A DNA stretch of 64,000 nt from the NCBI GenBank assembly GCA_964016885.1, contig OZ024757.1, forward strand, positions 1,240,001 to 1,304,000, read 5' to 3'. Numbering within the stretch: the first letter of the stretch is position 1; every line of letters starts with the position of its first letter. A program made the position numbers and the translations under genes. The notes below the pieces were generated by a model. That model was not told where the DNA came from. It worked only from the letters and a program-made list of their open reading frames with translations, and did not search any database. This document shows, piece after piece, positions 21,041-26,970 of this stretch. This DNA comes from Eledone cirrhosa (lineage: Eukaryota).

Positions 21041-21130
21041 TCCTCGACTACGTAGTTTCGTGGCATAAACAAAAACAATACATCATAAAGATATAGAGTC
21101 CTTGCGAGGTCTGCCGACTTATCAAGAGGA
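21041..21130 (-). ncRNA. Hammerhead, U3:A8 variant (family of 26134-27035)
   Basis: Minus strand UCCUC-UUGAUAA-GUCGGCA...UGCCAC-GAAA-CUACGUAG-UC-GAGGA. Confidence 0.8.
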
Positions 21131-21801
21131 TACCTCATTTTACTAGTCTCAAGAACGCGTCTACACGACGTGAGAAAGAATCCCAAAAGGCGGAGGGGGA
21201 GATAGTCACGCGATATAACGGTCGAGAAACAGAGCTAAGCCTCTTATAACCCCGAAGAAAATACCACGGAGGCGGAGGGGGTATTTATATCGAAGCCGTA
21301 GAAGAGGTGGTGAAGGAGGCGAGAAGTATGAGTAATGGAAGCTTTCCAGCAGTCCCTACACTTCAAAGATTGCTCGACCAGAGGGAGTTATTAACAATAT
21401 ATTTAGAAACACACAGATGTATATGTGTGTGTCCGCATGTATCTGTGTGTTTCTAAATATATTGTTATATATATATATATATATATATATATATATATAT
21501 ATATATATATATATACATATATATATATAGGTATGATACATTTTATTACTAATTATATCTAAATGTTTCTTCTCTTTTCATAATGTATATATATATATAT
21601 ATATATATATATATATATATATATATATATATATATATATATATATATATATATATATATATATATATATATATATATATATATATATATATATATATAT
21701 ATATATATATATATATATATATATATATATATATATATATATATATATATATATATATATATATATATATATATATATATATATATATATATATATATAT
21801 A

Positions 21802-22090
21802 GGCACATGGCTTAGAGGTTAGAGTCTTGGCCTTGCAATCGAAAGGTTGTGAGTTCAATTCTCAAACCGGGTGATGTGTTATTTCCTTGAGCAAGACACT
21901 TTATTTCACATTGCTCCAGTTTACTCAGCTGTAGAAATGAGATGATAGGGACTGGGGTCCCCATCATTCCACTGCAAAGTGGTCGTGGAGGTGCCACGGC
22001 AAAAAAGCACCCAGCACTCACTGTAAATGAGGTTGGTGTTAGGAAGAGCATCCAGCTGTAGAAATCTAGCCAGAATCACTTCCCGATGAT
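21802..22090 (+). mobile_element. SINE: tRNA-like head, CORE-like domain and RTE-derived 3' tail
   Basis: TGGCTTAGAGG A box, GAGTTCAATTC B box, CCTTGAGCAAGACACTTTATTTCACATTGCTCCAG. 21969-22085 matches the RTE 3' UTR at 13425-13585. Confidence 0.88.
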
Positions 22091-22289
22091 ATATATATAT
22101 ATAAAGTGTTTCCGTGGGAAAGGTAAAGGAAAAGAGAGTGCAGACTACAGAAAAGAGAGTGCAGACTACAGAGCTTTTTAGTTATGTAATAAACAACATA
22201 AGATAATTATTCCATTTACCAAAGGTAAAGAGAGACGAGCCTGACACAGACGTCTGCCTTCGGTCGTCATAATGAAAATTATATATATA

Positions 22290-22430
22290 TAACGAAGGAA
22301 GTGTGGTAAGGAACCAGGTGGTTCATAACGCATCAGAGTACTTTGGGTAGTAGAGTGGGTAATAGGGAAAGGTTCAGGACCCCGACGGCAGAGCTCAAGC
22401 CGTTTCGACGGCAATTTCTGGACTAAATTA
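22290..22430 (-). mobile_element. Short pLTR end fragment of the Naiad family at 27082-31855 (3' half of its hammerhead)
   Basis: GACCCCGACGGCAGAGCTCAAGCCGTTTCGACGGC matches 27096-27130. Confidence 0.8.
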
Positions 22431-23063
22431 ATTTTTTTTAAATATATATATATATATACATATATATAAATGTAATCTGATATAAACAGAACTGCAGACG
22501 CTAAGCTTTTAGAAAATATCATATATTTTCACTAGCTCTGACACTTTGGCAGGTGAACAGTGAGCATTGGTGTCTGCAGTTCTGTTTACATGCCAAACAA
22601 GAGCAAGAATGAAGGGTTCATTCTACTGACATGGCTATAAAGAGGCTGCTTGCATAATTGCAAACGAATCGAATATTATTATTAATATTCGAAAAACTCA
22701 GATTACATTTATTGTATTCAGCCATGTAGAGCGATAAATTCATTTTTTTTTGTTATATATATATATATATATATATATATATATATAGATATATATATAT
22801 GTGTGCGTGTGTATATATGTATATATATATATAATAAAAGTATGTGTCCTATATATAATTAATACATACAGGGATACAAGTAGATTTTTTGGAATTTAAT
22901 TATTTATTATTATTTTTAAAGATATTTTCTGTGTTTACACTCCCTTGATTATATATATATATATATATATATATATATATATATATATATATATATATAT
23001 ATATATATATATATATATTAAAATACAAATATTAATAAAATAGATGTTCTTTTGATCAATTAA

Positions 23064-23116
23064 ATTTTATTATACATATTTCAGAGGTACAACAGTACGT
23101 CCTCATCAGACAAAAT
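23064..23116 (-). ncRNA. Minimal hammerhead (inverted arm)
   Basis: Reverse complement of 23227-23279. Confidence 0.8.
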
Positions 23117-23226
23117 ATATGACATACCCTGAGATGTTAAATGGTTAAGATTTAATCAAGGTAGTACCTTGATTAAATATTAAATCTTAACCATTTAACA
23201 TCTCAGGGTATGTCATGTATCATTAT

Positions 23227-23279
23227 ATTTTGTCTGATGAGGACGTACTGTTGTACCTCTGAAATATGTATAATAAAAT
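23227..23279 (+). ncRNA. Minimal hammerhead
   Basis: AUUUUGU-CUGAUGA-GGACGUAC[UGUU]GUACCUCU-GAAA-UAUGUA-UA-AUAAAAU. Confidence 0.8.
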
Positions 23280-24232: not shown

Positions 24233-24635
24233 ATATATATATATATATATATATATATATATATATATATATATATATATATATATATAAAGCGGTTCTT
24301 ATTCGGATACAACTTCTGATTTAGCCTAAGAAAATATCTATATGCGTGTGTAATTTATACAAGCATATATTTATTTTTTTATTTTCAATTGAGTTCTTAA
24401 ACACGTCGGATTGATAATGTTTTCAAAAACCTAATTAACCCGCGTGTATATTATTTTTTTCCTCATTTCGTGGGTTGTCTCCCCTTCCCGCTTCGTGTCG
24501 CTATGATACTTCCTCAGTCAAAAACTGCTGGAATTTCAAATTTGGCGGTCATTCGAGGTGAGAGAGAGCTACTGTACGGATATGATTTTTGAAAGCGGTA
24601 AGAAATTTGTTTTCTTATATCAATGTTTAATGGGC

Positions 24636-24761
24636 TTCCACTGACGATTTATAAGTGCCCACCTAAATATATTCTTACATGAATATATATTAGGCTTCTA
24701 CATAAACTGGAAACATTCTCCCAAACTTGTAGAAAACTTATAATGAAACAATTGTTTGGAA
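24636..24761 (+). ncRNA. Hammerhead with a long branched stem II
   Basis: UUCCA-CUGACGA-UUUAUAAG...CUUAUAAU-GAAA-CAAUUG-UU-UGGAA. Confidence 0.75.
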
Positions 24762-25633
24762 AGAGAGATATACTTTAACTTTAATTATATCTCATAAAAT
24801 AATACAACTGGTTTTTCCACATTATACATATTGTTAGCACCCAAACACTTAAATTGGGTTTATATTTTAATATAACCTAATGTTTGTTGAGTGAGATGGT
24901 TACCAGTCAGAGTTTAGCTTTAAACTATCTCTGTTATTGTATTAAATATTTACTCTTGATTGGCCAGAGGTGTTTATTTCCAGGTACCTTATGAATTTGA
25001 CTTTCCGTATTTATTACTGTTGTGAAATATTGTGGCTTTTTTTGGTTGTAACTTCTCTGTTTTTTAGCCTAAGAAAATATATATATATGCCTACGTATAT
25101 AATTACATGCATATACGTATTTATTTTCTTTTATTAATTGAGTTCTTTACACGAGGAATTGATATTGGTTTTGAAATAACTAATTAACCCGCGTGTGTTT
25201 TATTTTTTACTCTTAATTCGGCCGGAGAATTATATTCCCATTTGCCCTTTATAACATAACTTTCTGCATTTACTGCGGTTATGAGAAGCGGTTCTTATTC
25301 GGGTACAACTTCTGATTTAGCCTAAGAAAATATCTATATGCGTGTGTAATTTATACAAGCATATATTTATTTTTTTATTTTCAATTGAGTTCTTAAACAC
25401 GTCGGATTGATAATGTTTTCAAAAACCTAATTAACCCGCGTGTATATTATTTTTTTCCTCATTTCGTGGGTTGTCTCCCCTTCCCGCTTCGTGTCGCTAT
25501 GATACTTCCTCAGTCAAAAACTGCTGGAATTTCAAATTTGGCGGTCATTCGAGGTGAGAGAGAGAGCTACTGTACGGATATGATTTTTGACAGCGGTAAG
25601 AAATTTGTTTTCTTATATCAATGTTTAATGGGC

Positions 25634-25759
25634 TTCCACTGACGATTTATAAGTGCCCACCTAAATATATTCTTACATGAATATATATTAGGCTTCTACA
25701 TAAACTGGAAACATTCTCCCAAACTTGTAGAAAACTTATAATGAAACAATTGTTTGGAA
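25634..25759 (+). ncRNA. Hammerhead with a long branched stem II (second copy)
   Basis: Same motif 998 nt downstream of 24636. Confidence 0.75.
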
Positions 25760-26372
25760 AGAGAGATATACTTTAACTTTAATTATATCTCATAAAATAA
25801 TACAACTGGTTTTTCCACATTATACATATTGTTAGCACCCAAACACTTAAATTGGGTTTATATTTTAATATAACCTAATGTTTGTTGAGTGAGATGGTTA
25901 CCAGTCAGAGTTTAGCTTTAAACTATCTCTGTTATTGTATTAATTATATATAATATATATTATATATATATATATAATATATATATATATATAATATATA
26001 TATATTTATTAAATATATATATTATATATATATATATATATATATATATATATATATATATACAATAATTGTTTCTACGTTAGGAACAAGGCCAGCAATT
26101 ACCCAGTGCATTACTGGTACTTTATATATATATACAATAATGAGAAATACACAGATACATGCGAATACATACTATACATGCATATACACATATATATATT
26201 TCACAAGTGTGTGAAATTGTGTGGTGCCAACCTTAACCGTTGTTGCTCTATGATTAAGAGGGACAAAATAATCTGAATGAATTAAATTGACTCAATATCA
26301 GAGCTATATAATACATTATAAAGAAAGAAGAAACACTGGACATAAATAAATAAATACCTATTATTTCTTCAC

Positions 26373-26466
26373 ATTCTCGACTGTACAGTTACGTGGCTAC
26401 TTTGCAAAACTCCTATATCATAGAGATGTAGTATTCTTGTGAGGTTTGCCAACTTATCAAGAGAAT
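26373..26466 (-). ncRNA. Hammerhead, U3:A8 variant, probably inactivated (GAAA changed to GUAA)
   Basis: Reverse complement of 26877-26970 with a core substitution at 26391. Confidence 0.65.
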
Positions 26467-26876
26467 ACCTCATTTAAAGTTTCAAAACACGTCCGCAACG
26501 CGTGAGAGCGAATCTCGGCAAGGCGAAGGGGGAATTTATCACGTGATACAGCGGTCAAGAAACAGAGCTAAGTCCCTTATAGCCATGAGAAATGCCACAA
26601 ATGGCGGAGAGGGCATTAATACCTAGGCTACAGACGAGGTGGCTAGAAGTGTAAATAGTGTTAGTTTGAAAGCAGTCACTATACTTCCGTGGTTACTCTA
26701 CCGTAGGGAGTTATAGACAATAATGAGAAATACACAGATTCATGCGCTATAAGGATACATGGCTATAAGGGACTTAGCTCTGTTTCTTGACTGCTGTATC
26801 ACGTGATAAATTCCCCCTCCACCTTCCTGGGATTCTCTCACGCGTTGCGGACGTGTTTTGAAACTTTAAATGAGGT

Positions 26877-26970
26877 ATTCTCTTGATAAGCTGGCAAACC
26901 TCACAAGAATACTACATCTCTATGATATAGGAGTTTTGCAAAGTAGCCGCGAAACTGTACAGTCGAGAAT
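26877..26970 (+). ncRNA. Hammerhead, U3:A8 variant
   Basis: AUUCUC-UUGAUAA-GC...GC-GAAA-CUGUACAG-UC-GAGAAU. Confidence 0.8.

What the first reader, a model, noticed from the sequence alone, without database searches (positions are those of the whole stretch)
21041..26970. U3:A8 hammerhead variant (UUGAUAA) supported by covariation between two diverged copies
Seen: the copies at 21041-21130 (-) and 26877-26970 (+) both keep UUGAUAA, GAAA and UC while the helices change in compensatory fashion. Stem I is UCCUC/GAGGA vs UUCUC/GAGAA, the stem III palindrome is ACUACGUAGU vs ACUGUACAGU, and the stem II base is GU/AC vs GC/GC. Known: C3 and G8 form a Watson-Crick pair in the active fold, and U3:A8 is a tolerated but uncommon natural swap. 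Inference: this is a selected, functional ribozyme that CUGANGA searches miss.
Basis: partly seen in the sequence, partly recalled or inferred. Interest (0 to 1): 0.8.

Follow-up and report, generated by a model that had tools for sequence, protein, structure and literature searches.

The report
Pseudoknotted variant hammerhead in animal retrozymes
The two motifs are copies of a variant hammerhead fold carried by a roughly 600-base non-coding repeat with thousands of copies in this animal genome; it likely cuts its own RNA and is likely spread by Penelope-like retrotransposons, and while the core variant is already published, its enlarged and probably pseudoknotted form appears undescribed.

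Summary
Observation confirmed. Both motifs are type I hammerheads with a U3-A8 core in truncated copies of two ~75%-identical families of a ~600-nt non-coding repeat: at least 7,662 copies, in tandem and head-to-head arrays at (TA)n. Four older families share the fold, and helices covary strongly. The two copies share U3-A8 by descent, so they show no 3:8 covariation. Elsewhere the genome does: one subfamily has 6 U-A, 14 U·G, 17 C-G and 0 C·A of 37. U3-A8 is published, including in Penelope elements (PMC3088659, PMC4209133), and this scan met it before in other genomes. The neighbouring autonomous Hydra-type Penelope element has a similar U3-A8 hammerhead, but a C3·A8 mismatch version reached 1,537 copies, against 14 in the non-coding lineage. 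This suggests cleavage may matter to the parasite and not to the helper. Cleavage and expression are untested. New variant of a known kind.

The parts
21013..21418 (-). 5'-truncated copy (406 of 593 nt) of repeat family A, ending in (TA)n
   Evidence: intact tandem unit in L018
21041..21130 (-). Type I hammerhead, copy 1: stem I 21130-21126/21045-21041, U3-A8 core box 21125-21119, second core box 21059-21056, predicted cut between C17 (21046) and 21045
21133..21137 (-). 5' strand of the predicted pseudoknot (copy 1)
21105..21109 (-). Loop II strand of the predicted pseudoknot (copy 1)
21070..21104 (-). Long hairpin inserted in stem II/loop II (copy 1)
   Evidence: 8 of 10 tested pairs change on both sides
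21047..21056 (-). 10-nt palindromic stem III; dimer duplex -12.9 kcal/mol versus +1.5 as a hairpin
21417..21467 (+). Short inverted fragment of the family A unit (head-to-head partner of copy 1)
21528..21588 (+). Family A 3' end plus ~60-nt tail between (TA)n runs (Penelope-type tail)
26760..27027 (+). 5'-truncated copy of repeat family B, ending in (TA)n
26875..26972 (+). Type I hammerhead, copy 2: core box 26883-26889, second box 26951-26954, palindrome 26954-26963, predicted cut between C17 (26964) and 26965
26871..26875 (+). 5' strand of the predicted pseudoknot (copy 2); partner strand 26899-26903
26129..26745 (-). Inverted family B arm of the same insertion; its hammerhead (26373-26472) has A13 changed to U at 26391 and is predicted inactive
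28355..30556 (+). Neighbouring autonomous Penelope-like ORF (733 aa stop to stop; RT plus C-terminal GIY-YIG) with Hydra-clade motifs; candidate helper class
27097..27190 (-). U3-A8 hammerhead of similar branched design (family C) in the inverted pLTR of that element; C17
31667..31760 (+). Family C hammerhead in the 3' pLTR; U17 in this copy

Best explanation
The motifs are U3-A8 type I hammerhead folds in a non-coding ~600-nt tandem repeat with thousands of genomic copies, likely a self-cleaving non-LTR retrozyme spread by a Penelope-like reverse transcriptase. Shown: the fold, its covariation over six families, the tandem and head-to-head arrays at (TA)n, and the absence of a long ORF. Inferred mechanism: (1) tandem copies are transcribed; (2) two successive hammerheads pair through their palindromic stems III, and a 5-6-bp pseudoknot between the 5' flank of stem I and loop II holds stems I and II parallel, in place of the usual loop-loop contact; (3) cleavage after C17 releases unit-length RNA, which may circularise; (4) a Penelope-type RT/endonuclease, probably of the Hydra clade, copies it into (TA)n, often from both strands, giving the inverted 5'-truncated pairs seen in the window. 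The two window copies are such dead-end insertions.
For: Helix covariation on 66 copies from families A, B, D-G: 91.6% of cells paired (shuffles 80.1%, slid controls 34-52%), 15 of 24 pairs changed on both sides, covariation score 0.372 versus 0.201. 3:8 states in one G subfamily: 6 U-A, 14 U·G, 17 C-G, 0 C·A of 37. Lineage-wide U3-A8 7,662 versus C3·A8 14, one of them mis-anchored and the rest scattered. Tandem spacing 590-595 nt with a hammerhead per unit; longest ATG ORF in the unit 78 aa; circular monomer folds at z = -4.2, sense -168 versus antisense -123 kcal/mol. Pseudoknot: five positions paired in 128-130 of 135 distinct copies, fixed spacing per family, flanking position unpaired (4 of 135), outer pair U-A 75, U·G 25, C-G 28, with C-G reached in family G and separately in an A subfamily. 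Pseudoknots joining stems I and II speed cleavage in other hammerheads, and U3-A8 is active in vitro (PMC3088659 passages).
Against: No cleavage or expression data. Published metazoan Penelope hammerheads cleave poorly, and 8 of 9 Xenopus retrozyme dimers did not cleave. Hammerhead catalysis was not needed for Penelope insertion in vitro (PMC11167929). The sister autonomous lineage amplified a C3·A8 mismatch to 1,537 copies. The inner pseudoknot pairs hardly vary, so they carry little covariation signal; C·A occurs at the outer pair in 5 of 135 copies, 3 of them in family F. Families D-G were found by core-containing patterns, so their core conservation is partly by construction. No autonomous element with a pLTR homologous to the A/B unit was found. 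Two count-based measures were weak (29 of 500 and 424 of 500 shuffles reached them).
Confidence: 0.75

Rival explanations
1. The fold is kept as a structural signal (RT/endonuclease binding, dimerisation, tail presentation), and cleavage is weak or irrelevant to spread.
For: A C3·A8 mismatch subfamily of the neighbouring Penelope lineage reached 1,537 copies flanking ORFs 89-93% identical to the window ORF. In vitro insertion did not need catalysis, and no RNA reads ended at the cut site in anole. No genomic scar at the cut site in unbiased samples.
Against: In the non-coding lineage the catalytic 3:8 pair moved U-A to U·G to C-G without a C·A state, and C·A never amplified. A purely structural role would not obviously need this pair, though this rests on few independent events.
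Confidence: 0.17
2. The A/B units are solo or tandem pseudo-LTRs of an autonomous Penelope family that I did not find, rather than an independent retrozyme.
For: Same arrangement as Penelope insertions (inverted 5'-truncated arms, tail, (TA)n). Vertebrate retrozymes derive from pLTRs (bioRxiv 2026.07.22.740005).
Against: Units run head-to-tail into the next unit in 30 of 61 ends examined, and none of those ends was seen to run into an ORF. No same-strand Penelope ORF lay directly upstream in any A-G locus searched; ORFs seen were on the other strand or beyond a (TA)n run. This rival is compatible with the best explanation as an origin.
Confidence: 0.06
3. Neutral satellite or chance resemblance; the helix changes are drift.
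For: Copies are related, so shuffle controls overstate significance (tool caveat).
Against: Double changes in all three core helices and in the inserted hairpin across six families; slid controls far lower; complete core and NUH site kept.
Confidence: 0.02

Closest known systems
Non-LTR retrozymes of animals (Cervera and de la Pena 2020, PMC7229834; Li, Clavereau, Pollet, bioRxiv 10.64898/2026.07.22.740005)
   Same: Non-coding tandem units, one type I hammerhead each, GC below 45% (42.5%), palindromic stem III, probable Penelope mobilisation.
   Different: Unit about 590-700 nt versus 170-400 nt in the 2020 paper (the 2026 preprint gives 51-972); U3-A8 core; ~55-60-nt branched stem II; predicted pseudoknot in place of canonical loop 1/loop 2 contacts; not matched by Rfam.
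Hammerheads in Penelope pLTRs, including the U3-A8 variant of Schistosoma mansoni Cercyon (Cervera and de la Pena 2014, PMC4209133)
   Same: U3-A8 core, type I topology, palindromic stem III, copies close together on opposite strands.
   Different: Those are minimal motifs with 4-9-nt loop II and an extra base after A9; here the motif is larger than canonical, lacks that extra base, and sits in a non-coding unit.
Pseudoknotted hammerheads and natural core variants (Perreault et al. 2011, PMC3088659)
   Same: Predicted base-paired contact joining stems I and II; natural U3-A8.
   Different: In the passages read these are mainly prokaryotic or phage type II motifs and are not tied to retroelement repeats; no long hairpin inside stem II is described there.
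Hydra-clade Penelope-like elements (Craig et al. 2021, PMC8557442)
   Same: The neighbouring element has RW, DKT and CxCX5C motifs, a C-terminal GIY-YIG domain and a (TA)n target.
   Different: All listed Hydra hammerheads have C3-G8 and short loop II (supplement S2); here U3-A8 or C3·A8 with a branched stem II, and a 3.5-kb unit.

Membership tests
Type I hammerhead ribozyme | Conserved core boxes and NUH cut site, 3:8 Watson-Crick pair | tested here: met
   U3-A8 in place of C3-G8, C17
Type I hammerhead ribozyme | Three helices around the core with compensatory changes | tested here: met
Type I hammerhead ribozyme | [quoted passage not shown] | tested here: inconclusive
   5-6-bp pseudoknot conserved; only the outer pair covaries
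Type I hammerhead ribozyme | Site-specific self-cleavage | not testable with these tools
   needs in vitro kinetics
Rfam hammerhead families (clan CL00010) | Match to a curated covariance model | tested here: not met
   no hammerhead hit at E<=10
Non-LTR retrozyme | Tandem units each with a complete type I hammerhead | tested here: met
   L018 three units, L127 runs of five and three
Non-LTR retrozyme | No protein-coding capacity | tested here: met
   longest ATG ORF within the unit 78 aa, no counterpart of that length in family B
Non-LTR retrozyme | Small unit, GC below 45% | tested here: inconclusive
   GC 42.5% met; 593 nt exceeds the 170-400 nt of PMC7229834 but lies within the 51-972 nt of the 2026 preprint
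Non-LTR retrozyme | Expressed as unit-length linear and circular RNA | not testable with these tools
   no run on record as RNA was listed; only contigs were available
Penelope-mobilised element | Partial tandems, inverted 5'-truncated arms, tail, microsatellite target | tested here: met
   pattern described in PMC8557442
Penelope-mobilised element | Sequence homology to the pLTR of an autonomous partner | tested here: not met
   none to the active family C unit; other families sampled only by chance
Minimal Penelope hammerhead (min-HHR) | Little or no stem III, short loop II, extra base between A9 and G10.1 | tested here: not met
   10-12-nt palindrome, ~55-60-nt stem II region, no extra base
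Hydra-clade PLE (neighbouring element only) | RWK-like, DKT and CxCX5C motifs, C-terminal GIY-YIG, (TA)n target | tested here: met
   RWR at 50, DKT at 130, CxCX5C at 585, GIY-YIG-like at 604
Hydra-clade PLE (neighbouring element only) | Placement in the clade by RT phylogeny | not tested
   no tree was built with published Hydra proteins

The most novel reading that the evidence does not exclude
This genome hosts an undescribed superfamily of large retrozymes whose hammerhead is a fast, pseudoknot-stabilised, branched U3-A8 form. Their genomic record is a natural experiment: the non-coding parasite must keep the catalytic 3:8 pair (U-A, U·G, C-G, never C·A), because it needs to cut and circularise, while its Hydra-type Penelope helper spread with the pair broken, because it does not. 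That would answer why Penelope-associated hammerheads persist: they serve the parasitic RNA circles, not the retrotransposon.
Probability: 0.3. Interest if true: 0.7.

Novelty: new variant of a known kind. Interest (0 to 1): 0.45.

Why it matters
The headline U3-A8 swap is known. What adds value is scale and anatomy: more than 7,600 copies of a hammerhead that Rfam misses entirely, with a branched stem II and a likely pseudoknot not reported for animal retrozymes in the papers I could read. Whether hammerhead cleavage matters for Penelope-type transposition is an open question (PMC8557442, PMC11167929). This genome offers naturally amplified U-A, U·G, C-G and C·A versions in matched backgrounds, in a parasite and in a helper, which makes the question directly testable.

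Tried and rejected
(1) Cleavage-site scars. In one search, position 17 differed between the two arms of all 11 paired family C insertions, and two copies had insertions at the cut site. This was query bias: unbiased samples gave 98 of the first 100 with C17, 2 with U17 and no insertion (765 matches), and 97 of the first 100 unchanged in family A (625 matches). Rejected. (2) 3:8 covariation in family C. The 8 C3-G8 copies match the ~10 expected from single mutation of the 1,537 C3·A8 copies. Rejected. (3) A pseudoknot in family C. The 5' flank more plausibly extends stem I, and no covariation was seen. Not supported. (4) (192 A copies with the outer-pair C; 98 of the first 100 with G partner) is weak, because most A copies have that G anyway; Fisher p = 0.24 within A. 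(5) A 175-aa ORF was an artefact of an inexact unit slice; the natural tandem gives 78 aa. (6) Search for an autonomous partner: Penelope ORFs near B, G and F copies are on the other strand or beyond (TA)n; no homology to family C. (7) Sequencing runs: no RNA holder listed. Contigs of four runs of unknown kind cannot show expression, and the one contig that goes back 593 nt fits tandem DNA as well as a circle. (8) Metagenome scan: 0 matches. One search was over-specified and found nothing. Viral collections were not searched, so relatives there remain open. (9) Rows dropped: 34 of 170 distinct descriptor hits, all from an unrelated minisatellite in L130/L131; 1 of 136 lacked a 5' flank; 66 copies, nearly all drawn from those 136, were used. 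(10) Lunse et al. 2017 (PMC5785218) and Przybilski and Hammann 2007 (PMC1986816) were not held; the first may describe similar variants.
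Full report
Observation. The window is AT-rich, microsatellite-laden animal-like DNA from a 3.0-Gb assembly. My guess from recall that it is octopus-like was not tested. Both motifs are present as described: 21041-21130 (-) and 26875-26972 (+). Between them, 5 of 35 modelled pairs change on both sides, 2 on one side, and 2 break, both in the loop II hairpin; 14 of 14 core-adjacent columns are identical at 79 of 107 overall. Rfam reports no hammerhead at either site, although it weakly detects a canonical one at 34328-34399. The 3:8 pair is the same in both copies, so the title's claim that these two copies support the U3-A8 pair by covariation does not hold; their covariation supports the helices.

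What carries them. Copy 1 belongs to family A: a 593-nt unit, 42.5% GC, with 41 matches, 40 of them full-length and about 100% identical, from 40 scored of 476 candidates, and 1,625 exact junction matches. Copy 2 belongs to family B, about 600-615 nt and 75% identical to A over 377 nt. Copies form head-to-tail runs and head-to-head inverted pairs bounded by (TA)n. Of 61 unit ends examined, 30 continue into the next unit, 15 end in a tail then (TA)n, 1 ends short, and 15 were unclassified. The longest ATG ORF in the unit is 78 aa. A natural monomer folded as a circle gives z = -4.2 over 40 shuffles, and the hammerhead strand is far more stable than its complement. Both window copies are 5'-truncated arms; the partner arm of copy 2 has A13 changed to U.

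A superfamily. A pattern excluding the known families gave 905 matches against 81 in the control and revealed older families D-G with the same design. The lineage totals at least 7,662 U3-A8 copies. On 66 copies, 91.6% of cells pair (shuffles 80.1 +/- 0.6; slid controls 34-52%), 15 of 24 pairs change on both sides, and the covariation score is 0.372 versus 0.201. Two type-count measures were not clearly above the shuffles (29 of 500 and 424 of 500), and the sequences are related, so these are not probabilities. D-G were reached through core-containing patterns, so their core conservation is partly built in.

Stem II opens into a long hairpin (8 of 10 tested pairs double-changed), preceded by a 5-nt single strand complementary to a 5-nt block 1-2 nt upstream of stem I. 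These five positions pair in 128-130 of 135 distinct copies, a sixth in 112, and the position on the other side in 4; the spacing is nearly fixed per family. The outer pair is U-A 75, U·G 25, C-G 28 and C·A 5; C-G is fixed in G and arose separately in an A subfamily. The inner pairs barely vary, so the case rests on conserved complementarity at the place where stem I-stem II pseudoknots are known to act (PMC3088659, passages), plus one covarying pair. I put it at about 0.65. Stem III is a 10-12-nt palindrome, stable as a dimer (-12.9 and -13.4 kcal/mol) but not as a hairpin (+1.5), as in Penelope hammerheads.

The 3:8 pair. In the first 100 of 7,251 A/B copies, 99 are U-A and 1 is U·G. A G subfamily shows 6 U-A, 14 U·G, 17 C-G and 0 C·A of 37 (Fisher p = 0.02, but it is probably one trajectory). 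C3·A8 is found 14 times lineage-wide, scattered, one of them mis-anchored. This is the real evidence for the pair. The neighbouring autonomous element tells the opposite story. Its ORF (28355-30556) has Hydra-clade motifs and many 98-100% identical copies (150 scored of 36,306 candidates) in a 3,528-nt tandem unit. Its pLTR hammerhead (family C) has U3-A8 in about 5,036 copies, C3·A8 in 1,537, U·G in 32 and C-G in 8, with slightly different patterns. In 4 of 4 loci checked, C·A copies flank ORFs about 89-93% identical to the window protein. That a C·A core is impaired is recalled knowledge, not tested here.

Mechanism. Shown: fold, covariation, arrays, target and lack of ORF. Inferred: transcription of tandems, dimer- and pseudoknot-assisted cleavage after C17, possible circularisation, and copying by a Penelope RT/endonuclease into (TA)n. 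The helper is not identified: family C shares target and hammerhead design but no detectable sequence. The main rival is a structural role without needed cleavage, supported by the C·A subfamily and by in vitro work on an anole Penelope.

Prior knowledge and what I read. U3-A8 in nature: PMC3088659 (passages). U3-A8 in Penelope elements, about 1,300 hits: PMC4209133 (parts 1-2 of 4, supplement passages). Retrozymes: PMC7229834 (passages) and bioRxiv 10.64898/2026.07.22.740005 (parts 1-3 of 5, supplements closed). Hydra clade: PMC8557442 (passages, section 11, supplement part 2 of 59 and term searches). PMC11167929 (parts 1-2 of 4). Passages only: PMC6765202, PMC10085705, PMC3884650, PMC7936874, PMC7151607. 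Searches showed no report of a pseudoknotted, branched U3-A8 hammerhead in an animal retrozyme. Figures were not visible and Lunse et al. 2017 was not held, so absence from print is not certain. Earlier notes of this scan list U3-A8 Penelope hammerheads in other genomes, none similar in sequence and none in this genome.

Verdict. A real and probably functional hammerhead of a known core variant, in a large undescribed retrozyme-type lineage with an unusual periphery: a new variant of a known kind. Interest 0.45. The parasite-versus-helper contrast is the most valuable lead (probability 0.3, interest 0.7 if true).

Noticed in passing
window 23064-23116 (-) / 23227-23279 (+) and 58186-58257 (-) / 60051-60112 (+): Head-to-head pairs of canonical C3-G8 type I hammerheads of another family; the 58-60 kb pair lies around a decayed Hydra-like endonuclease fragment at 59600-60018.
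   Followed up: no
window 34026-35146: 467-nt tandem repeat (2.4 copies) with a canonical hammerhead per unit, weakly matched by Rfam HH9 at 38.6 bits; a conventional retrozyme candidate.
   Followed up: no
window 17281-18624 (+), flanks 16741-17040 and 19150-19378: Second Penelope-like RT fragment with inverted flanks; a minimal C3-G8 hammerhead candidate near 19229 was seen by eye only.
   Followed up: no
G000 genome-wide: 40,765 matches to the 3' half of the family C hammerhead, many as head-to-head pairs only 50-90 nt apart: extremely short 5'-truncated Penelope insertions, about six times the number of full motifs counted.
   Followed up: partly
G000, e.g. L246-L249: Amplified C3·A8 mismatch subfamily (1,537 copies) of the Hydra-type Penelope pLTR hammerhead.
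   Followed up: partly
window 31775-31853; L062-L090: Family C insertions end at two fixed points, 20 nt and about 95 nt after the cut site, as with the two RT start sites of the anole element.
   Followed up: partly
window 12525-12777: Further fragments of the A/B unit without the hammerhead, in inverted arrangement at (TA)n.
   Followed up: no
window 13611-16625 (-): LINE ORF with endonuclease, RT and an internal PHD finger.
   Followed up: no
window 1-6266 and 35644-35978: 45-nt satellite, 139 copies, with a short inverted array elsewhere.
   Followed up: no
G000:C2 about 254.7-256.4 Mb: Clustered repeat, about 1.4-1.6 kb spacing, matching the loose U3-A8 pattern dozens of times; structure not examined.
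   Followed up: no
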